A DNA stretch of 64,000 nt. It comes from Flaccisagitta enflata (Eukaryota). Position numbers and translations under genes: made by a program. A model generated the notes under the pieces. That model saw nothing but the letters and a program-made list of their open reading frames with translations, made no database searches and had not been told where the DNA came from. The DNA is taken from the NCBI GenBank assembly GCA_965153355.1, contig OZ231126.1, forward strand, positions 13,888,001-13,952,000, given 5' to 3'. Positions 28,333 through 62,053 of this stretch are shown here, one piece after another; the first letter of the stretch is position 1; each line of letters begins with the position of its first letter.

Positions 28333-28362
28333 GTTGGGGTATTAGGAGTTGAAGGATGGAAT

Positions 28363-30295: not shown

Positions 30296-31692
<1,397 letters not shown>

Positions 31693-32286: not shown

Positions 32287-33290
32287 CACGGTAAAAAAAA
32301 ACCACAGTGGTTTGTTACCGGTTTGTGTATTTTTCGTAGGGACTTTTTTTCTTGCAGTGGTTTGTAAAAACCACTGACTGCTTCTTTGGCCGCTCTGAAA
32401 TTTAACAAACCAAAAAGTTTTCCCTATGGTTTGCGGTAACCTTGCGTGGTTTCTTGGCGCCCCGCGGCCCGCGCCCCGCGGTTTATTTTTTAAAAACCAA
32501 CCCAACGTTTAACAAACCACGGAATATATTACCTTGGTTTGTACAAAATACCCGCATCCCTGGCCGAAAAGGGTTTTGTGTATATCTTTGAATTCCTTAA
32601 AACCAGAAGGAATCGTTCCCTTGGTTTTTTAAAAACTTACTCCGGCTTCCACAAACCACTGATTATCTGTCGTTGGTTTTTAAATAAGAAACGAAGGTCA
32701 CATTGTAAAAAATTTTGTAAACCAAAGATATATAATCAGTGGTTTGAGCAAAAACAACTGGCCCAGAAACGTTTTTTTTCTTTCTCAGCCTTTCCGTGGT
32801 TTGTCCAAACCCATTTTAATAACACTGCTGGTTTGTACAAACCAAACTACTCTTTTCATCGAAACGCACAAACCCTTACGCAGGGTTTGTAAAAACCATG
32901 GATTCTGCATAATTGGTTTCCACAAACTGGATGTGGTAACATATTTTTATTGGGCCAACCCTACGCCATGGTAATTTACCTTCACGGATACAGCACAATT
33001 GGTTTGCACAAACTGGACGTGTATAAATAATGTTTTTTCCACAAACCTGAGCGTTTTGGTTTGTACAATCCGAATACCTATCGTCATTGGTTTTTAAAAA
33101 CCATATGTAATCGTTCCAATATTAATTATGGAAAATTTTTTTCATGAGCATATGGTTCTTACAAACCCAAAACGATGGGTACTTGGATCGTACAAACCTG
33201 AAGGATCAGGTTTGTGCACCAAAAATGATTGTAACGCGTCCGGTTTGTGTAAACCAACAAACCTGTCTGCGTTACGGGTGGTGAAAACCC
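32287..33290. mobile_element. CMC/EnSpm-type transposon terminus: CACGGTAAAAAAAA end plus ~1 kb of subterminal GGTTT(G/T)..AAACC repeats
   Basis: Dozens of direct and inverted ggtttgt/acaaacc motifs begin immediately after a CAC terminus. Confidence 0.65.
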
Positions 33291-33353
33291 TAGCTATTAT
33301 TATTTCTAGAGTGTTTTTTTGGGGCGTCCTCGAATCTCTTAAAAAAGCTTCAA

Positions 33354-34273
33354 AATTACAGTCCCCGACGGGGGACTGTAATTGTTGAAGCTTTCTCGTT
33401 GCGTAAACGCAACTCGAAAAGATACACGACAACAAAATAATTTAAAAAAAAAAAAAATTTGCAAAAAAAAAAAAAAAAATTATAAAAAAAAAATTTTTTT
33501 AAAAAAAATTTTTTTTAAAAAATTTTTTTGCCTAAGTCCTAGTAATATATTGCTACATAAATAAGCTTATATCTCATAAACCAGACTTCAAATTTATTTC
33601 AAATTTGGCAGGGGCTATTCAATTGATGTCCTTTACTTGTACATAAAATTAAAAAAAAAATTCACATAACTTTACTACCCTTTGCTTATGTAAACTGCCA
33701 AAGTCCTAGTAACATATTACTACATAAATAAGCTAATATCTCCTAACCCAGACTTCAGATTTAATTCAAATTTTGCAGGGGCTGTTCAATTGATGTCCTC
33801 TACTTGTAAACAAAATAAAAAAAAAATTCATAAACTTTTACTACCCTTTGCCTATGTAAACTGCCTAAGTCCTAGTAATATATTACTACATAAATAAGCT
33901 AATATCTTATAAACCAGGCTTCAGATTTAATTCGAATTTTGCAGGGGTGGTTTATTTACTATCCTCTACTTGTATACCAAATTAAAAAAAAATTCACATA
34001 CTTTTACTACCCTCTACCTATGTAAACCACCTAAGTCCCAGCTAAATATTACTACAAAAATAATAGGCAAAGGGTAGTAAAAGTTTATGAATTTTTTTGA
34101 AAATTGGTACACAAGCTCCTATTGACCTATAAACAACACCAGCAAAGTTTCATAAAATTTTGAAGTCTGGATCCAAAAATATGAGAAGGTTTTAAACGCC
34201 AAACGACAAACGACAGACTACGTATCACTGCTACTTCATAGTCACCGACGAAAACTGTTCGTCGGGGACAATA
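33354..34273 (+). mobile_element. Helentron-like non-autonomous element with ~166-bp internal tandem repeats
   Basis: 5' hairpin aattacagtcccc-gacg-ggggactgtaatt. 3' hairpin gtcaccgacgaa..ttcgtcggggac shares the gtc.ccgacg motif. Repeat units start at ~33530, 33697, 33863 and 34029. Confidence 0.7.
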
Positions 34274-35877
34274 GTCAGTCGGTCTGTTTCTCAGCTTCTC
34301 CTGTTGCTCGGTCTGTCGGTTCTTGTTTTTGCATCACTGCTCCTGCCCAACTGTCCTTATATTCGTCCTTGTTATTTCATTCAATGACGTACATTTGGAA
34401 ACAGTCATTTTGAATAACTTTTCTTCATTCATTAAATAAATTATTCTTTCATTCATCCATTCATTCATTCATTCATTCTTTCATTCATTCATTCATTCAT
34501 TCATTCATTTATTCATTGAAAAAAATTTATTAAAAAAAAGCTTATGGAGATGAAAAAATTCTCTTTAAGGGGAAGCATATCGTTACAGTCTTTGGCTCTT
34601 CCCTTAGGTCCTTTTTTTGTTCATTTTTTTGGTCCGTCCGTTGGTTGGTTGGTTGTTTGGTTGGTTGGTTGGTTGGTTGTTTGGCAAAGCCTATTGCCCT
34701 AAACTTGCCCTTTTTTTATTTTAATGTGAGTATATGTATAGTTCTTTCAGTTGGGTTGTTGGTTGGTCGGTTGGTTGGTTGGTTGGGCAGTCGGTACGTT
34801 GGTCGGTAGGGCGGTCGGTTGGTCGGTTGGCTGGTCGTTCTGTTGGTCGGTCGGTTGGTTTGTGGTTCAGGCCTTTCCCATTGAAAAAATTCAAGTGATG
34901 CCTCTCCCATATTGTCCTATTATGGGAGGTTTTTTTAAAAAATAATTTTTTTTTTAAAGTAAAAAACAAGTTAAATATGTGTCAACTTATTCTTTAGTAC
35001 CAGGACATGCAAATATTTTGTTTGGGCGCCCCCCCCCCCCTCCCCACAAAAAAACACCCTTGAGATAATATTTGTTTCACCACCGCGAAAATGGAAAAAA
35101 AAGAAAAAATAAAAAGATTATTCTTAAAGAAATCAAAACCTTTTTATTCAGTATCGGAATGGTACGTAAGCAACTTGTGTTTTTATAATGTATAAGGCTA
35201 TGTCAGCAACTGTTTTTCAATATAGTTTGCAGTGAAGAAGTACGCATAGGAAAAAAAAAACGGAAATAACGAAATCGATCAACGAGCACAGGAGAACCAC
35301 AAATAAAACTAAAAAACTTCGGCTTTCATCCAGTATCTGTCCATGAAAAAAACATTTTTTTTAAATAGAGACGCCAAATTGACATTTAACATGATTCATA
35401 ACAACCCCTAACACAACCCTTAACCACATAATATCAACACCTACCCCTACACACCACCCCTAACGCAATCCCCACTCCTTACCCTAATTCCTATCCCCAA
35501 CTCTAACCCCACCCCTAACCCTAATCCCTACATATAGGTATACCTACCCCTAACATGCACCCCCCCTATCAATATCCTCACTCCTACCCCCTACCCTACA
35601 CCTACCCCTACACACCTAATGCTATCCCCACTCCTTACCCTAATCCCTATCCCCGATCCTAACACCATTCCTAACCCAATCCACATTCCTAACTCTAAAA
35701 GAGCCCTAACTGGACCGCTTACCCCAACATCAGTTTTAACCTTAACCACCATACTATATCAGGCAGTTTACATGAATAACGCTGTCAATGAGCCTATGGA
35801 AATCTCAATTTTTAATTAAAGATGAAGGCCAAGTTTTAAAAAAATAAACTGTAAACAGCCTGGAATGAAACAAACTC

Positions 35878-36462
35878 TCAGTCATCATCATCAAAGGCAT
35901 CCTCATCATCATCGTCGTCATCATCGTCACCATCAGCCCCCTTATCATCATCTTTGGCATTTGGTTGGCGACTTCTCTTTATGTTCAACTTCAATCGGTG
36001 CGACGGTTTCTTGGGTTTCTGTTCACTCCGGTATCTCGCCGTGATTACCGGAATGATCTCGCTCTTCGCCTGGGCCTAGAGTGTGTTTGGTGTTGTGTTT
36101 ATGGTTTTGTGTTGTGGTTGGGGTAGGGTTGGGGTGGGGGATGGGTGTTGAATGAAGTTTAGTGGGTTAAAAATTAAGAAGTCACATTGTCACATTCACG
36201 CTCTTTTTCAGTTATTAAGTGTTGAGCCCATTTCTTGCTTTAACATATGTGTTATGTTGGTTGATACAGGGGCCAAAAATAAATTGAATCCTATGTTTTT
36301 ATCAAGGAATGGAAAACTTTTTTTTTGTTAACCCCAAAATGTCCCACTTTCTTATAATGGTAAAAATGTCACATGTAGGATTGTATTTTTTGGGGGTCTT
36401 TAAGGAATAAAAGTACTATGTAAACATTTTCCCAAAGCATTTACCCTTGGGGAAAACATTTG

Positions 36463-36541
<79 letters not shown>

Positions 36542-36790
36542 TATATGTTATATATTTATTAAGATTACTTCTGTTTTCTCAAAAAAGGAACAAATCACCT
36601 TTTTTTTTTTTTTTTCTTTTTAAAAAGGAAATCTAAAACTACTACTACTACAACTACTACTACTACTACAACTACTTCTACTACAACTACTACTAATACT
36701 ACTACTACTACTACTACCACTACCACTACTTCTGCTACGACATCTACTACTACTTTTTACCACTACTACTACTACTACTACTACCACCAC

Positions 36791-36836
<46 letters not shown>

Positions 36837-39800
36837 CAAATACTTAATAATACTTTTAATTACTAAAAAACACTACTACTAATACCATCACCAAATAATA
36901 TACCAAATACTAAAACAATTTTTACAACCTAACGCCCAACCTGCTCATGACGTAAGGACACTCCGACTTTCTTGTCCAGTTTCAGCATCTCCCTTCGCAT
37001 GATGGGGGTTTGGACCGGTTTGTAAATGGGATTCACTCCTTGCAGGGAGAAGTTCGGCTGCTGGAAGATCATTCTGTTGACAAGGAGGAATGAAACCGGA
37101 GGAATTCATTACTTTTTCAACTCTTTTTTAATGGTTGTTTAATAGTGCTTCTTCCCAGAAAGAGTTCAACCTCCAATCTCCACAGTGTAGTTATGAAATT
37201 CCTCAACCCATCTCACTCTTTAACTGGGAATGTCAGTTGTACAACATATCACATGACAAGATCAATTACAAAATAAAAAAAACAAAGGCAGAACAAAAAC
37301 AATACCCAATTCACTTTCCGATGAAATTGGCCTAACACCAGCCTCTGGTGCTAGGCACCATCTTTATTTGAATCCCCTCGGCACGCAACAATTTTTTTTA
37401 AACCAAGTTTTTGATGAGCATGGAAGCTGCATGTGTGTTAAATCCCCACACTGTCCCCCTAGGTTTTTCTTATAATGGTACCCCTTTATATCAGTCAAAA
37501 CCTTACCCCCCCCCCCCCCCCAAAACAAAAAGGTTAAACATGACAAGATAAATTACAAATTACAAAAACTAACAAAGGCCGACCGGAAAAAATACGCAAT
37601 TTACCTTCCAATGAAATTGGCTTGAGACACCAGCTTCCGGTGGGTGGCCCCATCTTTATTGGAAGTCCCTTCGGCACGGCCCAAATGTGTGAAGACAGTA
37701 AATTTCTTTGACAGCATCCACGCCCACCACTGGATAACCAGGTCCCCCATCGCGTCTTCTTCCTCTTCCCATTCTTCGGTCTCTTCGTCTTGAACGAACA
37801 TCGACTTGTAACTCACCACATTCCCCTCGGTGATGAGGAAAACCCAAGTCTGTTTAGGGTCCGCCTCACCGTTGGGTTCCTCCGGGAAATCTTTTTTACC
37901 CATTGTATGGATTGGGCATTGGGCAGTGGGCGTAGGGAAGCAGGTGCATGCATGTGTATTGGGTATTGGACCGGGAAGGGGAGTAAGAAAAGGTAGTTGG
38001 TTGTATGAAAATAAAAAAGATAACATCATTTCACCTCAGTTCCCATTCCATGGGAGTTACGGCTGGTATTCTATACCCAATCATTGCCAACTGGTCAATG
38101 GAAACGGTTTTACTACGTCTTAAACAAACAACAATTTGAGAGAGAAAGGATTATTTGATTTTTGGACCTGTTACGCCAAATCTGAGAACAGCCCCAGATT
38201 TTCCAGTGTTCGATTTAAAATCGATTTGATCTGGTCTCTCTAAACAATACCCGTTCACCTTTTTTTGGTTTCCATGGTGGGGAGGGGGGGAGGGAAAGGT
38301 TGACCATGACAATTTTTTTTTTAAACAGTAGGAGGGATATGGTGCACAAAGGTGGAGTATCACAAAGGTAACCTACTTTTTCTAAAGAAGAAAAATATCA
38401 GCATTTTCTGGGCCTCACCTCAACAAATATGTTTTGGGTCTCCTTTAGGTTTCCTTCGGTCGACACACAAGCCTTTAATAAAAAGGGGAGGTTAATACTC
38501 ATTTAAACAACAGTTTTTTTCTTCGCCATGGGTGAGGGGCGGGGAGCCAATAGTCATCTATTTCCCTTTTTTTTCTCACCACTTTATCTTTTTAAAGAAA
38601 TGTAAAAAAAAAAAAAATTCCTGCAGAACCAACTTACTAACTTACTCACTAACTTACTTTAAAGAAAAAGAAAGGAGAGAAAACAAGAATAAAAGGTAGA
38701 AATGTCCAACCAGTCTTTTTCTTCGACTCGGCCCTCCTTCCCCCCCCCTCTCACCCCTCCACCATATCTAAATGTACCCAAGCAAGACTCACAAAACAAC
38801 ATTCACCTGGCTCATTAACAACATGCCACGCAACCCCCAAATGGTCCGCCAGTTGTTACTCTTGGACATGATGTCAATTCCGGCCAATTTGTCGCCATGC
38901 ATCGCGACGAGGTACTTCTTCCAGAAGGTGTCCAAACGATTCAAAAGAATTTTGTAACCACCAGGCACATAAACGTCCATAAAAACTTTGATGAAAAGTT
39001 TGTGGTAATCCTAGAATGCAAAGAGATCGTTTTACAAACTTCACCCCCCTCCTCCAATAAAGAAAAAAAATAAAATGCCAAAACCTCTTAGAGGTTTAGG
39101 CATCAAATTTTTCTCCTTTGGTGGGGGGGAGGGGGGGGGGGGGGAAATCTGTTCAACCAATTTTCCTGCGTGAAGGTTGCTTTGTTGAGTTGTTGGGTTG
39201 GTTGCTCAGTTCAATTTGTCTTTTCTCATATATATGGAATTGTGCCAGTATCCTACCCTAGCAATGCACCAACCCAAACAACGAAAATTCCTATTAAGAT
39301 ATGTGTGTTGTGGGCCTTTTTTTTTTGGTTTAACCATATCATTGTGTATAGTTGGGCTCATCACATTTTCTGACCTGTGAGATTTGTGGGAACCTCTTGG
39401 GGAATTCTTTAAAAAAGTCGCCGACGTCCGGTTTGTAAGCGGCCATCGATGGAGTTACTCCCGATTTCACCGCCAGAAACTAAAGAAGGTAAATCACCCT
39501 ATTAAGGAACCTCATTTATAAGCATCATCATTGGTAAACAACCTGATCCAAAAACCACCTTCATTCCATTTTCTGAACACTGAAGGTTTTTAAAACATTT
39601 AATTCAAACGTACCAAAACTTGGTCTTTGGTAAGCTTCTCCTCGCTGGTAAGGTTCGCCCGTGCTGTTGGTGTGAGATGTCGTAATCTCTCTTGTTTCTC
39701 CTCCATCTCTTTGTATGTCTGTTCCGAGTGCTCATCCAACAGGTAAAACTGAACCCCGTTTGTTGCCCAGAGACTTTTTTCGGAACCACGCGGCACCAAT

Positions 39801-42800
39801 CGGGATGTAGCGTCCTTCCCATTGTAAAGTGAGGGTTCAACATCACTCTCTGAAGAACCTTGGTCGTCAGGAGTTACTCGGTGTTCGGGTTCCCCTGCAG
39901 TGGGGGTATAATGGTAATTGAAAAGACAATTCATTGAAAAGAAATTTTTCATCCATTACAAAGAACAACCATGATAGGTCAACACAGCAACATAAAAACC
40001 AGACACAATCTTACTCTTTCGTCTTAGAGCACACCAAATCGACGAAATCTTCTTGGCCAGTTCGTTTTGTAAGTCGATCTCTCCCAAAGTTTGGTGCCCG
40101 GTAAAGAACCGTGGAGCGTCGGCCTTTATGAGTCCTAACAAAAGACCCACGGCATCCTTGCTGGTCAACTTCAACGTTGATCCGTTGTTAAGTTTCAACG
40201 TGTTGTCCATGTTGTTGACCAGGAGTAGCTCGACGATCATCGCCTGATTATGGGATTAAGTTAATTGTCAAATTAAGGAGATCCTTTACGCCCAAACGCA
40301 CAGGACGTCATATAATATGGGGTACCTGTGTTTCTCAATTACCATATCCTTTTTTTCTATTCAATATACAGATGTCCATCATGGTTGTGTATATCATATG
40401 TATCTCCCCACCTCAATGGACAATTCATCCGTCATGATTTTGGCTGCCATACTCCAGTAATTGCGGCTTTTCCCTTCCTTTAAGTTGTAGCAGTCCATTA
40501 TGGCATAGAGCGTCAATTCGCCCAACTCCGCCGCCTTCTTCGTCATTTGGGGCACGACGATTCTTTGGTAAACTTCTTTTATTTGTGCTGTGGAATCTAT
40601 ATGGAAATAATGGTTAAAGTCAAGCCTAGTCAGCCCTAGGGATAGTTCAATGAGTCTTTTTCTTTTTTTTGGCAAACACTAAACCAAAAAAATTTCAATA
40701 ACAACATCCTGGTTCCAACCTTTCAATTCACTGAGAGCGGGCCTCTTCGACTGCAGGAGGTAGAGATCGTCCTCGTCCGGGTTCACATTGGGCCTTTGGT
40801 AGATATATTGGCTGGAGGGTATGTGTTTGACAACCAATACGTTATGGCCGTCCATATTATTATCAATCAACTCCAGCCACTCCTCCCAATCCTGTGTCCC
40901 CTTTTTGCGCAGGAAAACTTTATGGGTAGGGGAGACTCGATAGTCGAAAACCTTTTTGACGCTTAAGGCTTCATGCCTCATCCCATAATCAAAGCGTAAC
41001 TCGCGGTCGCCGACTTTAATACCGCGGCCATAAAGTTCCTCCACCAACGTCACATCTGCATAAAACAAAGACAATTAGTCATAATCAGTGGAGTGACAAT
41101 GAAGCACCTCCACCTTCTTTTGGTAATAGGGATGGGTTGTGTCTGGCCAAAACAAATGTGCCCAAGCACATTTGTTTAATTTTTACAATTACTCATATAT
41201 CCGGATAATCACCCTTGGAATTTCCCGTTAGCCTCTGGGAAGGCAATTTCTTTTATGTCCAGTCTATGTAACTTGCATAAGTCAACCGATACACTCACTT
41301 ACCAAGACCATCAAGCATTGCACTCATGGGTTCGGTATTGCTTGCGAAACTGTGTTTTGGTAGGTCCACCAACACAGGTCCACTTGGGTTAACAAAACCA
41401 GTCTTCGTCTTCGCCTCCAACCGCAGTCTTTCTCGAATGTTTTGGACATCGAAAGCTCGAGATGTGTCTATTGGCCAAACCGACCTTCCATGAACTGTGG
41501 GGATGTGTAAAGAGAATCAGAATCATTTCCTAGTCCTGGGCTATGCGATTGTAAGGTTAGGCGCGTGAATCCGTCCAAAAATTATAAATCACTATATGTG
41601 TAAACCAATTTACACACACCTTCGCTGAATTTGCATTTTCCAAGGGCAACTTCGGTCGCTTTGGTCCTTGGGAAAACATCTTTGTATACAACCGGCAAAG
41701 CTGAATGAGTACGACGCTTTGGTTTGGGTTTCAGCGGTGGTGGTGGGCCGCTACCCTCAAACCGCCCTTCATCACGCCTTTGCTCGCTTGTGGATCCTGT
41801 GCAGGGTTGTGTATAGTTGCATGCCCTTTTTTCTGTATTTTGGGAGGATACTATTCCAAGTTTGTTTTGGTCTTATGTTGAGAGGCGCATGTAATAGTTT
41901 CCACTGCAATATGCAAATGAGCATTTTAGCCACCAACACGATCAGTGCAACAGATACTGCCGTAAAATCAATCCTCTGGCATTTGGTGATTTCCTTTATA
42001 CATCCCCTCAATCCTTTTCTTTCCCCCCCTCCCTAACATAATTCAGGGGGGGGGGAGCAACTATACACAGCCCTGTTTTCCAAAAAAAAAAATATGAATC
42101 CAAAGCGGATCTCCCCTTGGAGGAATCCTTTTTCCTTAGGTGGTTCAAACACCACATGCTTGGTTATGTCCGTCGCTCTTGTGTGTAAGTCGGTTTGTTG
42201 GTCAGTTGGTAATCCCTTGGTTGATGATCCACATGTTGACTATATTACCCTACTTGGCCTTTTATTTCCTTTATATTTTTGGCCATATTTTTTTCACCTG
42301 AAGCAACAGCTGTGGCATCCGAACTTTTTCCGGGAAGCGGCGGTTGTGATTCGCCGACGGAACTGCCAACCACCGGAGGGACAGCTTCCTGACGTGGCCT
42401 CTCTCTCCCATGTCCTGATTGTGATGCGGTCCCAGCGTAAGTCGTATCAGTTCCATAACCTACAAGTTGTGCAGTGAGAAAAAGAAAATACATTTTGGTT
42501 CTCTTTTGTATCCCTTAATCATGTGCACAGAACACAAAGCACAGTGTCCTTTGCACACCTACCCGACTCATTCCTTCTTTTTTCAAGTTGACCGCCAAGC
42601 TCAGCGTCGACTGACAATTCTTTTTCTCCTTCAGCATTGGACGATGAACATGCCGGCTCCGAGGAAGGTATATGATGGATCAATTTCTCCTTGTTTCCAA
42701 TGCACCTAGTCAGCACATCGAATGGCACAACGGGAGGTGTAGCATCATCTTCTCTGACTACAAAATCCACTTCCTCGTCATTTTCGGAGTCATCATTGAT

Positions 42801-43682
42801 GTCCTGTAACCCTTTGTCTTCGTCTTCTTCCGCCTCGTCGTCTTTTTCTTTTCTCTGTCCACTGTCTTGATGGGTTGTCTCATCAATACCCAGCGAACTC
42901 ATGTTTGGGGGCGGCAACACGTTTGGGGTCGCGGGAGGAGTTTCCTTAGCTGTTGACTCGGACTGATGCGCCGAATCCGTGTCCTCAGGGGAAGGGGAGT
43001 GACGGGAAAACGAAGAATGTTCCATGTGATTGTCACCCTTTGAGGTTTTGGGAATTGTATTTTCCGGGTCGGAGGACTGTTGAGAGCCACCAACCCCCGG
43101 CGATGACGCTGGAAGAGTAGTTGGTGGGTAAGGCTCGGGAATGTCGGCAATTGGGCTTCTTAGTTTAACCCTAGGAGCTTTGGCCCCGACGCGATCTGCA
43201 AATAAAGGGGAATGGTTAACAAGGTCGTATACACGAGCAGAAGTCGCAGGCGGGTGGGCAGGAGCGGCGAAAAAGCAAAGTATTTCCAACAGACAGTCAG
43301 ACAGACCTTCACGATCCACTGTAGTTAATCTTTGGTCGATGTCTTGGGTTGAAGCCGAAGAGTCCATAGGGTTTAAACGAATCTTGGCCTGTTTCGCGTT
43401 GTTGGCTTCCACGATGGCGTCCACACTTTTGATTTTCTTTCCTTTTGAGTTTTTCCCATCTTTTACATTCCCACCCGTTCCCCTATCAGAAACTGTTTTC
43501 CCCCTGGAATCTTTGTTAGTTTCCGTTTTTCTCCCCCCCCCACCCCCCTTTTGGCCTCTCCCCCCATCCCCCTTGGCCCTTTTTGAAGTTGAGGAAGACT
43601 CAACGTCATCGTCGGATTCTTCCGATGACCCCTTTCTCGCCTGCCTGCCTGAAGGCGTTTTACGTTGGCGGGTGGTGGACAT
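35878..43682 (-). CDS. Multi-exon (~12) gene, probably the CMC element's second (non-catalytic, SAMD3-like) protein; may be partly decayed
   Basis: The ATG at 43682 opens a ~370-aa basic/acidic disordered exon. Protein-like exons, mostly with AG/GT borders, lie at ~42297-42459, 40710-41056, 40410-40597, 40015-40243, 39612-39895, 39375-39478, 38807-39010, 37605-37890, 36940-37090 and 35878-36075. Further exons may lie at ~41280-41800 and ~38400-38470. The helical pattern PDVGDFFKEFPKRF..ISQDYHKLF resembles animal EnSpm ORF2. Confidence 0.6.
36462..36840. repeat. (TA)n and (TAC)n microsatellites in the last intron of the ORF2-like gene
   Basis: Direct inspection. Confidence 0.95.
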
Positions 43683-44773: not shown

Positions 44774-44933
44774 TAAGCTTGTATCAGGCTGTAAAAAACT
44801 TAAAAAACATGTTAAAAGGTTTTTTCCTTTGCCGCCTCTGTCTTTTATTTTTTGCGAAACACGTGTACAATCTTATTCTTCGACAGTTTTGGGTAGACTA
44901 TAAAACACTGCCTATGTTTAACCACTTTCGTTA

Positions 44934-47317
44934 TTAAGCATCGTTTGCGAAGGTACCTAGGACTTCAAGCATCTGTTGTTTTTCAGAGTTTTGGGCAAAG
45001 ACAAACTCCTCTCCAATGATTGAAACAGTCCAAGGACTTCCTAGGGCCGCCAATTGGGAAAGTCTAGTGAAATTTGCGTTTGCCTCACGACCGTCAATCT
45101 CCGCCAAATCCTCGAATCTGCCACGTTTCGGGTTGCGCCCCTGCATCCATGAAACCTGGCGCATATATATGAACCAGGTAAGAATTTTGGGCTACTTTTT
45201 TAAATTTTTATGGAAAGTTAACACCCTGGGTAACGAGAATGAAACCTACCAGTCCTGGAGGTTTATTCTCCTTTTCCTCTTCGTTGTCAAAAACCAGTCG
45301 GCGAACATGAACTTCTGAGGCGTCCCTTCTGTTTTTATGTCCACTTGCCCCCTGATGTTTTTGAGGAGGCTTTTTCCATGTTAAACAAGGCCGGATACCC
45401 AGCCAATAGTAGTTGCGGACGGGTGGGCAGGGGTGGAAATGCGCTTTCAACCTTTCCAACCCGATCCCCATGTCAGACGGACGGACCGACCGACCGATGG
45501 ATGGACAAAGCCTATCATAGAGTTGCGTTTTCGCAACTAAAAACGGAAACCCTTTTATGTTTTGTTACTATTGAAACTATTAACTGTAATTGTTATACCA
45601 CAAAACAACATACAACAACATCAACATACAACAACAACAACAACAACAACAACAACAGCAGCCAACATAACAACAACATACTAACTATGTTTGGGGAAAC
45701 ATTCTCCTTCTCCCTTTCATGGATGGACAACTCCAATTCAACAACGCGGTGGTTTTTGGCCCCATTCTTGCGACCTCTAGAGCCTCCTTTTACGGCTTGT
45801 TCATTTCTTGGAAGGCACCCAACTTCCACCCCCATGTCGCGGTTAGATCCAAAGATGTTTACCCCCAATTCGGAAGTGCGGGGGGACTCTGTAGCAGGCG
45901 TGTATAAAGCTCCACAAGTTTTTTCACCTTTGTGCTTAAAGTCACTTAAAAAAAAAAAAAAAAAACTGTTTCTCATCTTACACTCCCCCCCCCTCCCAAA
46001 ACAAAAGAATTTATTCTGGATGACTTAAGTAAAATTAGAAAAGTTTTTTAATGTGGGACTTTAAACAGGCCTGCTCGCAAGTCAATACCGTGTGGATCCA
46101 TGAAACCATGGTGATCGACACAAGACGCGCGAACACCTCTCGAACATCCTGCGACACCCGTTTGTAGTTTCGAAAACACGCAGGCACCTTCCACCCGTGA
46201 AGTGGCAGGACCAATTTCCCTCAAGACGTCCTCGCCACCAACGGAAGTGGCCTCTGTAGTAGGCATGTATAAAGCTCCACAAGTTATTTCCCTTTGTACT
46301 AAAAGTCACTTAAAAAAAAAAAAAGTTTCTTATCTGTCACCCCCCCCCTCCAAAAAGAAACATGTTTATTTTTAAAAAGGAAAACATTAAAAAGTTTGTT
46401 AATGTGGAACTTTAAACAAGCCCGCTTGCGAGTCAATACCGTGAACAGAATCAACCGGAGCGGCACGAACACCCGCGGAGCTTTCATCAGTATCGGTCCA
46501 TAGATGATTTTGGGCGCGTTCCTCAATGCCTCGGGTTGGACCATCGCGCGCCGTTTGGTCCAGAAATGATGTGGGGTCAAAGGTTTCAGTCGTGTCGTAA
46601 AAACATCCGCTCGAATTGAGAAGACCGGTCAACTCGCCTTCGTCGCCGAATAAAGTGGAGAAGTCGGAAGGGAGGCTCTGTGGTGGTGGAAATAGAAAAT
46701 TTTGTGGGGGGGAAACATTGGGGACCCCGAATGTCAGGAAAGGAAATTTTCACTTTTTCCACTTCCTGATTTTTTCGGGGTTGGTTGCATTTTTTTAAAT
46801 GGAATAGTAATGGAACAATAAAGGTTAACTCGCAATTGGCAACATCAACCATCCTGCAACTTACATCATCCTGATTGGGCTGGCCAGGTGAGACGTCCAG
46901 ATGGAATGACGACGACGTCGACAAGTCGCCTGGATCTTGGAATGATAAAAAATCTTTGAAGGCATTGTCGGAGCCTGTGGCCAACAATGCCTCGAATTCC
47001 AACAGAGCATTTGTTAATGTCGCGGGATTTACGTTCCTCGCCAAGTCCCAAATCGTGGAATCACCTTGACTCGGCGCGTCCCAATCCACCAAACTTTCAT
47101 CTGAATCCAGGTGGATTTCGCCTCGCAGGAAATCGGAACCGGAAGGCGACAATGGTGGTGAAGTTATAACGGAGAGCGAAGTAAGGGTGGACACGGAATC
47201 CTCCTCATCGATCACCAACCCCAAATCCTCATCACTGGCGGCTGCACGGTCCTCAACCTCGTCGAGGATATGGCCCATGAAGCGACAGACCTCCTCTGAG
47301 ATAGCTTCTTTGGACAT
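44934..47317 (-). CDS. Multi-exon gene of unknown function (acidic, S/D-rich N-terminus; internally duplicated segments)
   Basis: The ATG is ~150 bp downstream of the transposase stop. Protein-like segments lie at 46860-47317, 46410-46650, 46060-46290, 45690-45940, 45248-45345 and 44934-45175, separated by T-rich intron-like stretches. The exon phases are not fully resolved. Confidence 0.5.
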
Positions 47318-47468
47318 TTTCTAATTTATTGTTTAAGGAAAGGCCTTTAAAATCCAAGTTTATTGTCTATGGCAACCTAGAGAAACATACAACACATTTC
47401 GCCAATCAAATGAACTGCCAAATACGATGAACGGAATGAACGATTTTTTTCAAACATCACTTTCACCT

Positions 47469-50400
47469 CTAAGGCACCAAGGCCATCAAACCAGAATCAT
47501 TTTCTGGGTTTTTATGATCACGGCCAAAATCATAAGAATAGTAAACGTTTCGGCGAAGATGATGTTCGTAAATTGGTTGATTAACTTCGTAAAATTTACT
47601 CGCAAACTCCGAAACAATGACTAAGTTATATTTAGCCGATTGAAGTCTATCATATACCAAACACCCCGTATCGGGATCGACCTTTACTCGCCAAACTCTT
47701 GTGTAAAAACCCACTATATTGGAGTCAGCCTTATTCACCAGGAGATTTAATATTTGACAGTATTCATTTTCCTTTTTGAAGTAAAAGGTGTTGCGGAAAA
47801 ATGGCGTGTTCATGATTACGAGTGATTTAAGTTCGGAGAACTCACCAAGTCCAAACGCCTTCCAACTGTCGACAACATGCTGTTTGGTTTTTCTCCTTCC
47901 TCTGGTGCCGAGCCTCTTTATTTGTCGCATAGGATCAACCAATCGATATCGTTTGGTGATGAAGGCAGTCTTTCGTTCATGCATTTTGGCAATGTATTTC
48001 ACCACAGCTATCCTATTTTTCGAGTCATGAGTGATCCCCTTTAAAAGCTTATGATTGTTTTCACCTCGCAATGCCGACGTTCCAGTGTGAGCAGGGCCAA
48101 AATTACGAATCCCATCACCAGAGTGAGTAAGGTAGTGAGCTTTGGGTCGAATTGGTGGATGGTAAAATTGTGGCGGTTTCAAACGTGGTTTCTTTGACGG
48201 AGGTGGTTGTTCTCCATTTTCAGAGCGTCCCTCTTCCTCGTCACCTGACTCGTCACCTGTTCCTTCATCCGCCCTTTCAATACAGTCGTCAACTTCCCCA
48301 TGCACAGAGGGGTCAGTTCGTTCGGCTTCATTGTCCTCTTCCCATTCCAAATCACTTGCTTCATTTCCCAGGCCATTGTTACCCTCTTGAGATTCCATCT
48401 CATCTTCTTCAAACAAATCCTGAGACTGTTCCTCTCCTCTTTGGTTATCGCCTTCCGAGTCTTCTCACCCCTCCACTGCCTCTTCATCATCATCATCATC
48501 ATTATCGTCATCGTCCTCATCATCGTCATCGTCCTCATCATCGTCATCGTCATCATCATCATCATCATCATCATCATTGACCACATCATCTTCCTCAGAC
48601 TGAGTAACCTCATCTTCTTCTGCACATTCATCCTCTGCCTCATTTTCACTTGGGTCTTGTTCTTCTTGTTCTTCTTGTTCTTCTTGTTCATCTCCGCTCG
48701 TTAAAGTGGTTTGGCTTCTTCTTTGCTTCCCCCTTTTCTTTGCATTTTCAATTGCTCTTTTTTTCTTCTGTTTCTCATATTTTCTTTTGTCCGACGCATA
48801 TCTTTTGTTTTTCGTCAGTTTAAATCTTAGTGAAAACATTAGTTTGATTTTTTCCTCCAACACTTCAATTTCCCATTCGGCTATGTGGAGTCTGGAGAAA
48901 AGCTCGTCGATAGACGCTAAAACCGCAAGCAGCTTGTATTCTGTGGTTTTACAAATGCTGCGGTAATCCTTTAAACCCCGAAAAGCGACGCGGGTGAGTT
49001 GTATGGTTGTTGAAAATTCTAAGAGGTATTCATCTACAATTCGGGATTTTTATTTTAACAGCCTGATTGAAAACCTTGTGGAAATTTTATTAGGGTTCGG
49101 GGTGGTGTTAGGGTTATAGGTGTTGTTACGGGTAGGATTAAGGTTACAAATCTTATGGGTCATGGAAACGGTCAATTAAATCTTTCCTTTTTCATTTCTG
49201 TTTTTTACTACAACATTATTGTGAAATCCCGAAAAATAGATGATCACCTTTGAAACTACCCTGAAAACAGGGGTACGTTTTTTCGGAGTAATGCTTCTTG
49301 TTGAAAGGTGGTATTGGATTTCTTTTATGTCTTCCTTTCTGTAATGGAATTTTTTTGTACTGAAACGCCAGATCATCGATTTCGATGATTTTTTTCTTCA
49401 TTAATCTTTTGATGGCAAGTCCAAAATAATCCTTCCCACTTCCGCCGTGGAAATTATGCCACACATCTCCTGCAAAGCCCCCAGATTCATGACAAATAAT
49501 GGTTGTCACCTCTGAATTGGTCAACAGTTCTAAAACGAAAGAAAGGAACATCGCTTGCTGTGACTAGATTTTTTTCATTATTGTTTGGGGGACCAAGAAA
49601 TTTAAACAATGAAATAGTTTTCTTTCGTCATCATTGTGAGGGCTTTGCAGGAGATGTGAAGCAATGGGACGAAAAAGGTGTCCTTGCCTGGCAGATCTTC
49701 CCAGACGTGAAATCCAGGCAGGTGGCGCAAGGGAGTCTCAGTCCTTATGCCACAGTTTTGGCCGGGCATGTAATCGCTACGCAAATCCTTTGAAAGTTCG
49801 AAGAATTGGTCGGGGTCCTCGCATTGGCTATATGCAGCCTGCGAAACATTGCATTGTCGACAGGGAAACTGGACGTAATTGTTGAAGGACCCTGATAATC
49901 CGGCGAGGGGGTTCATACATAAATTGTCCCCCATCGCCGTTCCCAATATTATTTGAATTATGTCGTCTCCAATTTTAAATTCCGTTGTTAGAAGGGACTG
50001 CAGGTTCTCCATCACTTTTTTTAACAGTCTGGGGTATGTATGCTTCTTGCATAAGTTTGACTTGCAAAGTCCGACCAAGAAGGTACATTGTTCCGTTGTT
50101 GAATGGGCGGAGAGGTGGACGAAAAGGTACATGCCGAAGCACTTCAGCACAGATCAGTAAAACTGATAACCCTAAAATATTAGAATTTGCTTATTTGCTT
50201 TTTTTTAGTGTAAAGGTACCCCTTGGGGTTATTCAAGAATCCTGAATATTTTTAATCTGGGACCCATATTTTTCTAACAGTTGATACAAGAAGATTAACA
50301 ACAAGATTGTCCTTTTATGATAACAAATGGCTGAGCTATGACTATTTAAAGCTTTGGGGGTATCCCTGGGGGTCCAAATTTCAAACCCCCGTAAAACCCA

Positions 50401-51857
50401 AAATATGGGTCCGAGAGTAAAAATATTTGGGATTCTTGAATAACTCCTAAAGGGGTACCTTTACACAAAAAAATAGCAAATTCTATTTTTTGAGGGTTTT
50501 CCGTTTTACTGATCCGTGCTGAAACCACCCTTATGTTTGGATCCATTTTTCGTATAGCCGCTATCAATCCCAAAATCGTCGACAAAAAAGGAGACGACAA
50601 GTGGCGAAACGTGTTGTGGTAGTTGCGCAATTTTCTCTTTGATTCTTCGTCCATCATAGATGGTGTGGTACCGTTGATTTTTGGAGTCACCCCTTGCTAA
50701 ACATTCCTCATTAAAACGATTATTTATTTCACGGCAGTTTTTCGCATGCTGCCATATCGGGGCAATTCCCTCGCTTTCGAGAAAACGTCGCATTTGTTTT
50801 ACGATGTCAAAAACGATGACCGTATCCTTGGGAGCCAGCTCTTTGTCAATTTGCCACTCCATAGGTTCGATGATCTCCTCGGTTTCTTGAAAAGTTTGTT
50901 CCCTCCGATAATTTGATCCAAATTGTTGGTTGAAGAAGGGATCCATGAGAATTTTGTTTATTTCATTTTTTAATTCATGGGTCAAGTCATTGTTATTTCC
51001 CAAATTTGTTTTTTGACAAACATCTTCAATGGTGTTGATAATTTGGTTTCTTAAAATTTTCACAAGTTCCTTTAATTGAGTGGCGACGAGATTAATTGCT
51101 TCTTGTTGTACGCGATAGATGTAGCGGAGGGAGCCGTAAAGCAAATCCAGGGTTTCTCCCATTTCAACATTGTCCCTATTTCCCCCGTCCCCTCAAAGAC
51201 GTGTGATTCCGGAAAGTTTTCATCCTGATTTGGTTGTTCGGGGTCACTATCACCACCCTCACCCTCCCCGTCACTGTTGTCTCCGTCCGGTTGAGAAATT
51301 GCGCCAGTTAGATCACCCGATGGAGAATAATTTATAATCGATATCACACTTGGGACGGCGAGGTATTTATGGGTGTTGAAACATTGTTGGACGCGCCGAC
51401 GTGTAGTCCACCACAAGGAGCAGGCTTTTTTGAAGATGCAAGGTATGACTGTGGCGGAGGGTCCGGCGGAGGGTCCGTCGGTGGTTCCGGCCGGTTTATA
51501 TGGGAAATGGGTGAGGAAGTGATTTTTCAACAACGCCATATTTTGTTCTTCAAAGTCGGAAGATGGAGAGAGGGAGATCCTTGAGTTGCAGATTTGGCAG
51601 TCATGATGACTGGTGCTGTTGCGTAATTGCGGGTGGTCGTAATGGTGATATTTGTTTAAATGATATTTGAAACTGTTGAGGAGACGACCCTCCTTTGTTC
51701 CAAAAAAGTGCTTCTTTTTGGGACAGAGAAGACAGAAAGGGGGTTGATCTTTGAAATCTCCTTTGCAAGCGTGAAATTGAAGATGATTAAAACATTCCTG
51801 GATGACATTGGGCAGCTGTTTCGCGCACAAACGGCAAGTTGTATTTGGGATCGACAT
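47469..51857 (-). pseudogene. CMC (EnSpm/Mirage-like) DDE transposase with N-terminal C2H2 zinc fingers, ~1190 aa reconstructed; disrupted
   Basis: ZnFs: CRLC..H..FH, CLLC..HLNKYH, CQIC..HFLTH. D1 is in FFVDDF..GSKHK (50575-50580) and D2 in MGDNL..N.LAG.SGSF..PCRQC (49926). LPGDVWHNFHGG forms across a GC-AG intron (49470-49687). A GT-AG intron is at 49019-49247. PKAHYLTH..IRNFGP..LRGENNHK carries the catalytic E (48060). Lesions: a 1-bp frameshift near 51163, a MITE at 50145-50521 and an in-frame TGA at 48465. Confidence 0.85.
50145..50521. mobile_element. Palindromic MITE inserted in the transposase catalytic domain
   Basis: TIRs cagcacagatcagtaaaac / gttttactgatccgtgctg, with imperfect inverted symmetry over ~130 bp. 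No clear TSD. Confidence 0.85.
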
Positions 51858-51892
51858 ATTGACTCTGTACGTTACAAATGAATGAGAAAAGG

Positions 51893-51979: not shown

Positions 51980-52001
51980 GCTTGGAGAAGAACACAAATT
52001 G

Positions 52002-52682
52002 CAAGGGGGTGAAAGCTAAAATGTTTTTAGCATATTTTAGCCTATTTTTGCAATTTTTTGAAAGTTTTTGAAAATTTTTGCACAATTTAGCACATTTTAG
52101 CATATTTTAACACCATTTGGAGATAACTGGACCCCTGCTGCCAGCAAAAATATGTTGAAATATGCTAAAATAGGCTTAAATATTCTGAAATTTGCTTCAA
52201 CATGGCAGAATGTGCTAACACCCTTGGAAATCTTATCAACCATAGAAAAGGCTAAAATATGCTTAAATTTTCTTAAATGTGCAAAAAATTTGCTAAAAAA
52301 TAGTAAAAACCACTAGAATCTTGAGAATCTCACTAAAGTGATTATGCCAAAATCTACTACAAGCGATAAGAAGAGGATTAAAGGTGCTGTAATCATTAAG
52401 GGAATTTTAATGAATTTTGGCCTGTTTTTGCACAATTTAGAATATTTTAGCACATTTTTGGATATTGTTACATATTTTATCATTTTTGGCGGCCAAAACA
52501 AGTTATCCTGTTTTTTAGGCTTTGTAAACCACCTTTTCACACATTTTAGCACGGTAGATAAGGCGATCAAATGCTTATTTGTACTAAATATGCTAAAATG
52601 TGCAAAAATTTGCTAGAACCGGCTAAAACTTGCAAAAATATGCTAAAATATGCTAAAAACATTTTTGCCTTCACCCCCCCTG
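52002..52682. mobile_element. MITE with CA(A/G)GGGGG ends and internal TTTAGCA repeats (hAT/P-like)
   Basis: caagggggtgaaagctaaaatgtttttagcatattttagc / gctaaaatatgctaaaaacatttttgccttcacccccctg. No TSD recognised. Confidence 0.75.
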
Positions 52683-52740
52683 CTTTTGAACAATAACGGA
52701 AGCGAAAGTTACTTTCTCAGTCCACAGAAGATGTTTTATT

Positions 52741-54238
52741 TCAACACTTTTTTGGCACAAAAAAGGCGTAAGGGTTCCATGGCACAGAGTCGTCGGAGCC
52801 ATCGGAATCCTCGTCGCTCAGTTCGAAAGGTAACTCCTTGAACTTGGAGACCAAGGATGTGGTTGGAGGTTTCAAGGCGCCGTCGTTGATCGCTTGTTTT
52901 TCCTTGAATTCTTCGTTGACGTTGTTTTCCGTGGGGAGGAACCAGGATCGCATCTCCGCTAACGCACCCATGGGATCCTCCCGTATCCATCCCTTTTTAT
53001 GAATCATGGACAATGAAGTTGACATAGAAATGTCATAGACATGGCACCACTTTTGGAAATGAATTAAGTAAAATTACCAATATGAGAAAACACCCTGTAT
53101 TCCCCTTCCCTACCTGGGGTTTTTGCGGAGGAGCATACGGGGAATCACTCCAAAGCATAAACGCCTGGATCCACGCATCCTTAGTGAGGGATTCTTTGGG
53201 TTTCTTCAACACCGGAGAAATGTAATCGTAGAAACTAAGCCACTGACGAACCTTGTTATGACCCCCAGATTGGACCTGGGGTTGGTCATTTAGAGCGAAG
53301 GAGTTTTTATCATTCATTGTCTATATTGATTGAGGAGAAACCGAATCTTAAACCTGCATGAGTGAACAGGGACATTGGAGGAGAAAGTACACAGGTTTCA
53401 CTGTGACAAGCAAAAGCAAAGTAAACTATATAAAGACCCTCTGGTTTTTCCTTTCGGGTTAACTGCATATATGATACAAACAGCGGGACTAACTTCCAAT
53501 TGTTTGTTTAACAAATATATCCTTGTTGGAGGAAGGATAAACAAAATGAAAAGGGGGCAAGCAGGAGATGTGACAAAGAAACATTTTAGCCCTTTTTAGT
53601 TTTGGTTTTCCATCTTTTCTCCTTACTTGAAATATAAAAAACTTTTGTGTGTTATTCTTACTGTTAACGACTGTTTTTTATGTTTTGAAGAATTTTGGAT
53701 AAGAGAGAGAAATGGAAAAGATGCAAAACTAACCTAGGCTAAAAATAGTTTTTTTCTCACTTTCCCCCCACCCCCACAACCAGCCTGGAAGAACGCAAGT
53801 ATCACAAGTCTAACAGGATCCACAATGACCAACTTTTTTTCTTGGCCAAGAGAGGAATAAAAGTCCGGGAAACCGGTTGTCTTCTTCCACACGCATTTTT
53901 CTGGGTGGCAAAACCCCGTCGCGACCAAAATTGCCTTCAAGGCGGTGTACGAGAGGATTCGTTTCGACTTTGATCATTGCTCCGGGTTGTTGTTTGGGCC
54001 TTTTGGTCTTTTTGCCTGGAAACAAAACCCGGCGAACGCGGCGAACGCGGCGAACGCGACGACGGACCTTGCAAGCATTTACCCCATCTACGCCCAGTGG
54101 GGAACTATTTCGATTCGCCAGAGGATCGCCAGTGGCGCGACCACTATATCCACACAGGCGTGTAAAAGGTTGAGTTATTTTTCCAAATATTTCACACTCC
54201 TTTATTTGATTCTTTAAACCATACAGATGGAAAACCAA
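52741..54238 (-). CDS. Putative multi-exon gene of unknown function (candidate cargo)
   Basis: Protein-like minus-strand segments at ~53810-54200, ~53115-53355 (ending at CAG|GTAGGG) and 52741-53025, which ends in a stop. Confidence 0.35.
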
Positions 54239-54390
54239 AATATAAAAGGTTTTATGGTTAGAATTGTGTGGTTTACCTTTTGTTTATCAACCCATAAATG
54301 TAAAAAAAAAAAAAACAGACATTGTGTTTTTTTTTTTTTTCTTCCCCATCTCGAAACCATTTCTCATTACTCATTGCTCATTACTCAACA

Positions 54391-55765
54391 TTAAACACGC
54401 CTGTATCCAAAATACGATCGATTTCGGCCAATCGCGGATTTCGCCCAATTAGAGTCCTTTAAACTTTGAAGGTTCTTCAACTCGATCCTTTCCAGCAGGA
54501 CGACCGGAGAGTCTCGCTGCGAAGGAACTCCGTCTTCCTCGAGAATCTTGTTTTTGTCAATTCCAAAAACGTCTCGTATTTCGACGCTCGCTTGTGCTTC
54601 TTCAGGGCGATGAGCGAAACAAGCTTGCTTGGCCATTGCTGTGTGAAAAAGAAAATGAGAAATATGGTCAGTTTTGGTATAAAACAATAAAATACGGTCC
54701 ACATTGGCAAATTCATGAGCACCAATGAGGCTAACCTGATTCCATATCATTGAAAGCGTAGCTTCGAGGATGGTTGATTCAGCGGAACGCAGAAAGATAT
54801 TGTCCAAGTTATCCTTTTACTAGTTCTTTGTTTAAAATACCTTGATTCTCCTGAAACAATAGAATTGCTACTGCATTGGTAAACAAGTGGGAGCAATTTG
54901 TCGAAAGAGACTTCATATTGAAGATGAGAAAAGAGGAACGAACGAAATGAAATCAAAAACGTAACCATCTTTGCATGGCGAGTTTATTCCCGATGGCGTT
55001 GATACCCACGAATGTCCAAGAATGGCCGAAATGTTTTTTAACAACACGTTAACCAAATAGAAGAAACAAAGTTTTTCAACCATCGCAACTTTAACGGTCC
55101 AACGACAAAGACGCGAGATCGGCAGTGGAAGACGTTGTAGGGTCCAACATTGGGGAGCGTTGCTTCATTATTCCATGTCGATTTTCAGAGTCCCCTGTGC
55201 GACGAAACACGACAATGGAGTCGACGTTTTCACCTGGAATAAGAGATACCTTCCAACATAACCGTCACATTTGTTGGCTATCCTATATTCTTCTAAAAAG
55301 GCAATTCTTACGATCCGAAGAATGAATACAGTTTGGGTCACAGACACATGACATGCGCCTACCTATGAACAAACCATCCACAATCTCCAGATTTTGAGAA
55401 GCGAAATCCATGGTGGATCTGCCGCCCAACCTCCCCAGCTCCACATAAACATCATCAAAGGAGCGATAGGCCGGGTTTTCGGTTATGCGAGCAGCGTTTT
55501 GGTCCCTGAGGCGCATATTAACGGGGACCATCGACACGAGATTTGGAGAAGGATGTTCGTCTGGCAAACTGGAACGGTACACTAGAACGCCCTCGGTAGT
55601 TTCTCCCACGTAGACTCCTCGTAAAATCGAGATGTTGCCCCAATACTGGAGTATCGGAATGGCTTTGATTTCACCCAAGTGAAACCACATATTGTGAATG
55701 CGAGGTTGACAGGCACCAAATGTGGAGGGGTGGCCACTCGATAAGGGTGCTGGACGCATACTCAT
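54391..55765 (-). pseudogene. Degenerate ORF(s) of unknown function (candidate cargo), broken by frameshifts and stops
   Basis: Non-repetitive, protein-like ORFs at 55283-55765 (160 aa), 54747-54968 and 54391-54807. The last two overlap and would join by one extra A in an A-run near 54815. Confidence 0.4.

Positions 55766-58343: not shown

Positions 58344-58439
<96 letters not shown>

Positions 58440-61964: not shown

Positions 61965-62053
<89 letters not shown>

What the first reader, a model, noticed from the sequence alone, without database searches (positions are those of the whole stretch)
32287..55765. Putative giant (>=23 kb) CMC/EnSpm-type transposon with four or more co-oriented, intron-containing genes
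Seen in the sequence: a CAC terminus with a 1-kb subterminal repeat field, then on the minus strand an ORF2-like gene (35878-43682), an unknown gene (44934-47317), a ZnF-DDE transposase (47469-51857) and further unknown ORFs (52741-55765). Once nested MITEs are removed, these are packed with short spacers, unlike the gene-poor host DNA around them. Established: CACTA/EnSpm elements normally encode a transposase plus one accessory protein. Inference: this is one large element with two or three extra, unrecognisable genes, one of them between the transposase and ORF2. It is the best candidate in the window for an undescribed system, a cargo-bearing animal DNA transposon lineage.
Basis: partly seen in the sequence, partly recalled or inferred. 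Interest (0 to 1): 0.8.

Follow-up and report, generated by a model that had tools for sequence, protein, structure and literature searches.

The report
Decayed CACTA-type transposon copy, extent unproven
The window holds a broken copy of a cut-and-paste (CACTA/EnSpm-type, RAG1-like) transposon with one recognisable end, a transposase gene and at least one companion gene, but nothing shows that it is a single giant element carrying four or more genes.

Summary
Real: a CAC terminus at 32287 followed by a 1-kb field of GGTTTGT/ACAAACC repeats, and a minus-strand transposase gene (51857-47472) with C2H2 fingers. The gene has the D, D, C(2)C, H(3)H, E layout of the CACTA/Mirage/Chapaev (CMC) group, and a relative's model has a RAG1-like fold. 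One exon of the "ORF2-like" gene (40679-41074) belongs to a many-variant family, as the transposase does.

Not shown:
- No second end and no second repeat field lie in the window.
- The "unknown gene" and the ORFs at 52.7-55.8 kb have no homologue or domain. Their only support is a transposase-like codon usage.

This transposase copy is defective. It has a frameshift near 51175, a 385-bp foldback insertion in the reading frame, and an in-frame TGA at 48465-48467.

The repeat field could also be a separate 1-kb non-autonomous element. EnSpm families of 16-20 kb with 4-5 ORFs are already reported from a red alga.

Verdict: new member of a known kind. The giant cargo-bearing reading stays possible (about 0.12) but unsupported.

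The parts
32287..33281 (+). CAC terminus (CACGGTAAAAAAAAACC) and a subterminal field of GGTTTGT/ACAAACC motifs in both orientations, many as 14-bp palindromic pairs. Either the 3' end of the element or a self-contained ~1-kb non-autonomous element.
33282..35877 (.). Repeat-rich spacer: a hairpin, A/T tracts, a 166-bp tandem repeat x3.2 (33529-34063) and microsatellites (34424-34860).
35878..43682 (-). Candidate accessory ('ORF2-like') gene. It has a 395-codon low-complexity basic/acidic first ORF (42519-43706, ATG at 43682) and further ORFs in one frame at 39599-41074. Only one exon is supported.
   Evidence: no Pfam hit
40679..41074 (-). Supported exon of the accessory gene. It is 86-91% identical to a cluster of 18 protein variants. 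The TAG at 40679-40681 stands where 13 of the 15 variants read have Glu.
44155..44765 (.). Nested foldback: about 20 copies of a 13-bp unit, then about 17 inverted copies.
44934..47317 (-). 'Unknown gene': a 243-codon acidic/serine-rich ORF (46589-47317) and an 85-codon ORF (44934-45191), separated by repeats (45208-46450). Coding status is unproven.
   Evidence: no Pfam hit; no viral relative
47472..51857 (-). CMC-type transposase gene of about 1,190 codons. Pieces: 51857-50530, 50141-49688, 49469-49248 and 49018-47472. Motifs: C2H2-like fingers 51507-51836; D at 50569-50589 (FFVDDFG); D at 49914-49934 (MGDNLCM); C(2)C at 49851-49862; H(3)H at 48123-48140; E at 48051-48071.
51170..51192 (-). 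One-base frameshift relative to the uninterrupted 450-aa ORF of P0002 (98% identical).
50145..50529 (.). 385-bp foldback (MITE-like) insertion inside the transposase reading frame, flanked by AAG/AAG. No canonical GT-AG pair restores the frame. All close relatives seen share it.
48465..48467 (-). In-frame TGA in the acidic linker, where relative P0001 reads on in the same frame.
52005..52678 (.). Nested MITE with 93-nt inverted ends, 150 bp upstream of the transposase ATG.
52741..55765 (-). Upstream ORFs of 110, 95, 141 and 160 codons. No homologue and no domain. Three of the four have transposase-like codon usage. It is unproven that they belong to the element.

Best explanation
The region is a decayed, no longer autonomous copy, or the 3' two-thirds of one, of a large CACTA/EnSpm-type (CMC, RAG1-like) DNA transposon of a marine eukaryote. 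It is riddled with later MITE and foldback insertions.

An intact element of this kind would move by cut and paste. The transposase has N-terminal C2H2 fingers and a DDE core with C(2)C and H(3)H motifs. It would recognise CAC...GTG ends and cleave them. A second protein, encoded downstream on the same strand, would bind the GGTTTGT subterminal repeats and bring the ends together, as TnpA does in maize En/Spm.

Shown: the terminus and repeat field, the transposase family and fold, the three lesions in this copy, and the repeated-family behaviour of the transposase and of one downstream exon.

Inferred: that the terminus at 32287 and the genes are one unit, that the downstream gene is the repeat-binding partner, and that the 5' end is beyond the window or lost. 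The two further 'genes' are not established.
For: **Terminus and field.**

**Transposase, links to known families.**
- phmmer with relative P0001 against 1.84 billion representatives gave 161 hits at E<=0.001 and 10 at E<=1e-30.
- I scanned 60 of the 150 listed hits (long ones, picked by me) against Pfam. Four carry DUF4218 and two carry Transposase_21.
- In those 60 the D, D, C..C, H...H and E columns are invariant or at least 90% conserved. The window has all of them. This is the layout PMC12730594 gives for EnSpm/Mirage/Chapaev/Transib.
- An AlphaFold model of P0005 reached mean pLDDT 76.7. P0005 is 31-55% identical to the window's pieces. Its 44 Foldseek PDB matches with E<=0.001 are RAG1 or RAG1-like chains in every row printed, best E 2.8e-7, and Transib follows.
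- The N-terminal profile matches C2H2 fingers (TFIIIA, E 4.6e-16).

**Repeated family.**
- The cluster of the transposase N-terminus has 25 members. Of the 15 read, 7 share one structural breakpoint after 'ERKDNV', a derivative subfamily.
- The downstream exon's cluster has 18 members. The 15 read are 86-99% identical pairwise, median 94.7%.

**Decay.**

**Codon usage.** Twelve of 19 minus-strand ORFs of at least 90 aa in 35.8-47.4 and 52.7-55.8 kb score like the transposase. So do 6 of 58 elsewhere and 2 of 16 on the plus strand of the same stretch (Mann-Whitney p=8e-5).
Against: - No second terminus and no second repeat field lie in the 31.7 kb to the right.
- The window's own transposase pieces hit no Pfam family at E<=0.1, so the Pfam link is transitive.
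- The accessory exon gave no function: no Pfam hit, Atlas best score 0.76, AlphaFold pLDDT 39.
- The variant clusters come from unnamed metagenome assemblies. They could mix copies, alleles and related species.
- The codon-usage threshold was chosen after seeing the scores, and strand composition may contribute.
- The right edge of the field reads ...TTACGGGTG(GTG), loosely like the reverse complement of the left end. The field may therefore be its own small element.
Confidence: 0.55

Rival explanations
1. Two unrelated things lie side by side. The segment 32287-33281 is a complete ~1-kb non-autonomous CACTA-type element made almost wholly of subterminal repeats. The transposase and accessory gene at 35.9-51.9 kb are a separate remnant without ends. 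The other ORFs are chance frames or host sequence.
For: - The field stops abruptly at about 33281. There the sequence reads TTACGGGTG(GTG), close to the reverse complement of CACGGTAA, and an inward-facing GGTTTGT lies about 20 nt from each edge.
- The GGTTTGT motif is at background level in the rest of the proposed element.
- The 2.6 kb between the field and the last ORF is repeats only.
- The area is rich in transposons: an intact LINE, a hAT remnant and MITEs.
Against: - The end match is weak: 9 of 13 positions with a gap, by eye. No 2-3-bp target duplication is visible (GTT on the left, GTG or AAA on the right).
- The last 300 bp of the field is itself an internal foldback, which can mimic an end.
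- The motif orientation is mixed, not mirrored.
- Minus-strand ORFs across the stretch share the transposase's codon usage.
Confidence: 0.25
2. It is one element of at least 23 kb, more than 31.7 kb if intact, carrying a transposase, a TnpA-like gene and two or three further real genes of unknown function that travel with it as cargo or extra helpers.
For: - All candidate ORFs are co-oriented.
- Their codon usage resembles the transposase's, unlike that of the neighbouring LINE and histone H1 genes.
- The spacers between them are largely filled by identifiable nested repeats.
- Enlarged 4-5-ORF EnSpm families exist elsewhere (PMC6431247).
Against: - The extra ORFs have no homologue, domain or fold.
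- Their lengths of 95-161 codons are near chance, apart from the 243-codon acidic ORF.
- There is no right end.
- Gene order in other copies could not be tested.
Confidence: 0.12
3. The genes are host genes, with a domesticated transposase and neighbours, and are not part of any mobile element.
For: No second end was found. The genes contain spliceosomal introns.
Against: - The transposase copy carries a frameshift, an insertion in its reading frame and a premature stop.
- Many diverged variants exist, including a structural derivative subfamily.
- A CAC terminus with a repeat field lies downstream.
Confidence: 0.05

Closest known systems
Maize En/Spm and other CACTA elements (TnpD transposase plus TnpA repeat-binding protein)
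   Same: CAC terminus. A subterminal field of a short motif in both orientations, often as inverted pairs. The transposase and a downstream co-oriented second gene on one strand. The DDE core is linked to Pfam Transposase_21/DUF4218 through intermediates. The En/Spm details are recalled, not from a call.
   Different: The terminus is CACGG, not CACTA. The transposase has N-terminal C2H2 fingers and a long acidic linker. The window's protein gives no direct Pfam hit. The accessory protein has no recognisable domain. The span is at least 19.6 kb (32287-51857), against about 8 kb (recalled). The neighbouring H1 gene carries a histone 3' stem-loop, so this is probably an animal.
Enlarged EnSpm families of the red alga Chondrus crispus (16-20 kb, 4-5 ORFs; Kojima et al. 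2013, as cited in PMC6431247)
   Different: I saw only one sentence of the review. No sequence comparison was possible. The host is different. Here the extra ORFs are unverified.
[quoted passage not shown]
   Same: The D, D, C(2)C, H(3-4)H, E layout. A relative's model has a RAG1-like fold. The end is of the 5'-CA.. type.
   Different: The match is at fold level only, at 10-14% identity. No RAG2-like partner was seen. Placement among EnSpm, Chapaev and Mirage was not resolved, because no reference sequences were at hand.
Fungal CMCT and other DNA transposons that carry a TET/JBP dioxygenase gene (PMC12730594)
   Same: A precedent for cut-and-paste elements of this clade carrying an extra gene.
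   Different: There the extra gene has a recognised enzyme family and complete elements with target duplications were reconstructed. Here neither is the case.

Membership tests
CMC / CMCT transposase (EnSpm-Mirage-Chapaev[-Transib]) | [quoted passage not shown] | tested here: met
   The window has FFVDDFG, MGDNLCM, CRQC, AHYLTH and LRGENNH in that order. The same columns are invariant or at least 90% conserved in 60 homologues.
CMC / CMCT transposase | A RAG1/Transib-like catalytic fold. | tested here: met
   Tested on relative P0005, not on the window's broken copy. The model has pLDDT 76.7. Every printed row among the 44 Foldseek matches with E<=0.001 is RAG1 or RAG1-like, and Transib follows. 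TM-scores are low, 0.26-0.41.
EnSpm/CACTA (Pfam Transposase_21, DUF4218) | Sequence match to the family models. | tested here: inconclusive
   The window's pieces give no hit at E<=0.1. Among 60 of its phmmer relatives, DUF4218 is in 4 and Transposase_21 in 2. The link is transitive only.
EnSpm/CACTA | Termini 5'-CAC...GTG-3' as inverted repeats. | tested here: inconclusive
   One CAC end lies at 32287. No convincing partner is in the window. A weak candidate at about 33281 would define only a 1-kb element.
EnSpm/CACTA | A 2-3-bp target-site duplication. | not testable with these tools
   It needs both ends or an empty site.
EnSpm/CACTA | Subterminal repeats at both ends. | tested here: inconclusive
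   A dense field at one place only: 19 motif copies in 1.08 kb against 10 in 62.9 kb.
EnSpm/CACTA | A second, repeat-binding (TnpA-like) protein. | not tested
   A co-oriented downstream gene exists and one exon behaves as a repeated family. No domain, fold or binding evidence was obtained.
Giant cargo-bearing transposon (one mobile unit with extra genes) | The same gene order between the same ends in independent copies. | not testable with these tools
   Searches gave no other copy with flanks.

The most novel reading that the evidence does not exclude
An animal CMC (RAG1-like) transposon of more than 23 kb, perhaps more than 31 kb. Besides its zinc-finger transposase and a repeat-binding partner, it would carry two or three further conserved genes of unknown fold that share the element's codon usage. 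That would be a cargo-bearing or multi-helper lineage not yet described in animals.
Probability: 0.12. Interest if true: 0.6.

Novelty: new member of a known kind. Interest (0 to 1): 0.3.

Why it matters
CMC transposons are the relatives of RAG1. Families with zinc-finger transposases and companion genes in marine animals are poorly catalogued. A well-bounded multi-gene copy would show how large such cut-and-paste elements can grow and what helpers they need. This copy is broken and unbounded, so on its own it adds a family record rather than a new principle.

Tried and rejected
**Searches for other copies or context**
- Whole-genome search: no genome is held.
There is therefore no exon model, no depth and no copy ends from reads. 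The runs were never laid.
- JGI metagenome scans with the transposase C-terminus and with a 24-base terminus pattern found nothing.
- IMG/VR scans with four proteins gave only L001. That hit is a chance match built around the seeded 8-mer.
- Exact look-up of ten window ORFs, including the LINE and a host control, found none in the collection, so it says nothing.
- tblastn of all 198 fetched proteins on the window found no hit outside the transposase gene and the one accessory exon.
- Earlier-findings look-ups by place and by sequence were empty.

**Function of the extra ORFs**
- Pfam found nothing on 20 ORF pieces.
- The Atlas gave a DUF6830 lead at 0.90, carried by 19% of the cluster's members, for the transposase C-terminus. 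It gave 0.76 for the accessory exon. Neither was used.
- The AlphaFold model of the accessory exon had pLDDT 39, so it was not sent to fold search.

**Readings considered and dropped or left open**
- The tail 'GVNPYMRF...' of the derivative subfamily was sought in the window as a possible internal deletion joint and was not found.
- I considered reading 50145-50529 as an intron. Its GT donors are phase 1 and the only usable AG is phase 0, so I read it as an insertion, with some doubt.
- I considered the stop in the accessory exon as proof of a pseudogene. That is not secure, because 13 of the 15 variants read have a stop of their own 11 codons later.
- The direct repeats 24924-27128 / 61182-62788 were considered as element boundaries and dropped. 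They flank a histone gene and a LINE-rich stretch and contain microsatellites.

**Other**
- The second paper search returned nothing relevant.
Full report
**What the window is.** No genome is held for it. It is eukaryotic and probably from an animal.
- A linker-histone H1 ORF (28366-29202, minus; Pfam E 7e-23) is followed by a histone 3' stem-loop (28292-28337).
- An intact 1,175-codon LINE ORF with PHD, endonuclease and reverse-transcriptase domains lies at 21161-24688.
- Public runs that hold the stretch are one coded organism and marine or seawater metagenomes.

**The terminus.** CACGGTAAAAAAAAACC begins at 32287. A field of GGTTTGT/ACAAACC motifs follows.
- There are 19 exact copies in 32250-33330 against 10 in the other 62,920 bases.
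- The paired form GGTTTGTNNAAACC occurs 17 times, all between 32359 and 33255, against 0.94 expected.
- Orientation is mixed. The last 300 bp form an internal foldback with 129-nt arms.
- Nowhere else in the window is there a second field or a convincing inverted copy of the end.
- If the element is intact and starts at 32287, it is therefore longer than 31.7 kb. Otherwise it is truncated, or the field is something else.
- The right edge of the field reads TTACGGGTG(GTG). This is loosely like the reverse complement of the left end, and an inward-facing motif lies about 20 nt from each edge. A stand-alone non-autonomous element of about 995 bp is thus a live alternative, though I see no target duplication.

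**The transposase.** The minus-strand ORFs from 51857 to 47472 are collinear with database proteins.
- Close relatives are P0002 (450 aa, 98%), P0008 (98%), P0011 (97%) and P0004 (94%). More distant are P0001 (697 aa, 59-78%) and P0003/P0005 (31-63%).
- Two real introns follow from the sequence and from P0001: a GC-AG intron at 49470-49687 and a GT-AG intron at 49019-49247.
- phmmer with P0001 against 1.84 billion representatives found 161 proteins at E<=0.001.
- I aligned 60 of the 150 listed hits, choosing long ones. The D, D, C..C, H...H and E columns are invariant or nearly so. Pfam finds DUF4218 in 4 and Transposase_21 in 2 of the 60.
- The window carries the same residues in the same order. 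This is the signature that PMC12730594 gives for EnSpm, Mirage, Chapaev and Transib (passages seen).
- The profile's first 60 positions match C2H2 fingers.
- A model of P0005 (pLDDT 76.7) matches RAG1 chains first and Transib next.
- The window's own pieces hit no Pfam model.
- I therefore file it in the CMC/CMCT group. I cannot place it among EnSpm, Chapaev and Mirage.

**This copy is broken.**
- Relative to the uninterrupted 450-codon ORF of P0002, the window has a one-base frameshift near 51172-51181.
- A 385-bp foldback lies at 50145-50529 between two AAG triplets. Taking it and one AAG out gives ...SKHK|CFGMYLF..., collinear with P0003 and P0005.
- No GT-AG pair can give that reading, because the donors are phase 1 and the acceptor is phase 0. 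The relatives at 90% identity or more read into this insert from both sides. It therefore predates their spread.
- A TGA at 48465-48467 interrupts the acidic linker where P0001 reads on.

**A repeated family.**
- The cluster of the transposase N-terminus has 25 members. Of the 15 read, 3 are full 450-aa forms. Seven share one breakpoint after ERKDNV followed by unrelated sequence, a structural derivative that has itself diversified. Its tail is not in the window.
- The exon at 40679-41074 of the 'ORF2-like' gene hits a cluster of 18 members. The 15 read are 86-99% identical pairwise in mosaic patterns.
- Two of the 15 end at the window's TAG. The other 13 read Glu there and stop 11 codons later.
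- These clusters come from unnamed assemblies. Copies, alleles and sister species cannot be told apart, but the spread is wide for a single-copy gene.

**The other 'genes'.**
- Twenty ORF pieces gave no Pfam family worth the name.
- The accessory exon gave no Atlas lead (0.76) and no confident fold (pLDDT 39).
- The 243-codon ORF at 46589-47317 is acidic and serine-rich. Its supposed intron is filled with repeats.
- The ORFs at 52741-55765 are 95-160 codons long. Viral-contig scans found nothing real.
- The only positive sign is codon usage trained on the transposase. Twelve of 19 minus-strand ORFs of at least 90 aa in these stretches score 0.045 or more. So do 6 of 58 elsewhere and 2 of 16 on the opposite strand (Fisher p=1.3e-5, Mann-Whitney p=8e-5).
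- I excluded 30.0-32.3 kb (microsatellite) and the training region from that count. I chose the threshold after seeing the scores.

**What could not be done.**
- Gene order in other copies, the second end, target duplications and RNA exon models are all missing.

**Comparison with what is known.**
- The layout is an end with a motif field, a transposase, and a downstream co-oriented gene. This is that of En/Spm (recalled).
- A review states that 16-20-kb EnSpm families with 4-5 ORFs were reported in Chondrus crispus (PMC6431247, passage seen).
- Fungal CMCT elements carry TET/JBP genes (PMC12730594).
- My searches did not turn up an animal case. They were few and did not cover Repbase Reports.
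- Earlier notes of this scan describe two-gene CACTA-like elements in Naegleria and rotifers.

**Verdict.** This is a new member of a known kind, in a decayed copy of uncertain extent.

Noticed in passing
window 21161-24688 (-): An intact 1,175-codon non-LTR retrotransposon ORF with PHD finger, endonuclease and reverse-transcriptase domains.
   Followed up: partly
window 28292-29202 (-): A linker histone H1 gene with a histone 3' stem-loop just downstream. This is a host gene only 3 kb from the terminus.
   Followed up: partly
window 50145-50529: A 385-bp foldback with about 130-nt arms sits inside the transposase reading frame between AAG/AAG. All close relatives seen share it. It looks like a MITE that spread along with its carrier, or an intron-like insert that canonical splicing cannot remove.
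   Followed up: partly
proteins P0155-P0158, P0160, P0161, P0165: Seven variants of the transposase N-terminus share one breakpoint after ERKDNV and then unrelated sequence, a derivative subfamily. The new sequence is not in the window.
   Followed up: partly
window 56386-60168: A 3.8-kb unit bounded by inverted repeats of about 750 bp (56386-57132 against 59416-60168, 90-91% over the aligned parts). It may be another transposon.
   Followed up: no
window 24924-27128 and 61182-62788: Direct repeats, 87-93% identical in three blocks, lie on either side of the whole region. They contain microsatellites and are probably copies of another repeat family.
   Followed up: no
window 63186-63605 (-): A remnant of a hAT transposase C-terminal dimerisation domain (Pfam E 2.4e-4, just under the curated cut-off).
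   Followed up: no
window 30300-31568: A 1.27-kb (TCTT)n microsatellite lies immediately left of the terminus region.
   Followed up: no
window 44155-44765: A foldback made of about 20 copies of CCTGTTAAAAACC and about 17 inverted copies. The unit loosely resembles the GGTTTTTAAAAACC variant of the subterminal motif. Whether that is meaningful is unknown.
   Followed up: no
window 18849-20354 (+): A 501-codon ORF with poly-Asn and poly-Ser runs and no Pfam hit. It may be a host gene exon.
   Followed up: no
window 45383-45543, 27360-27503, 60769-60857: A short dispersed repeat shared by three places in the window. One copy lies inside the 'unknown gene'.
   Followed up: no
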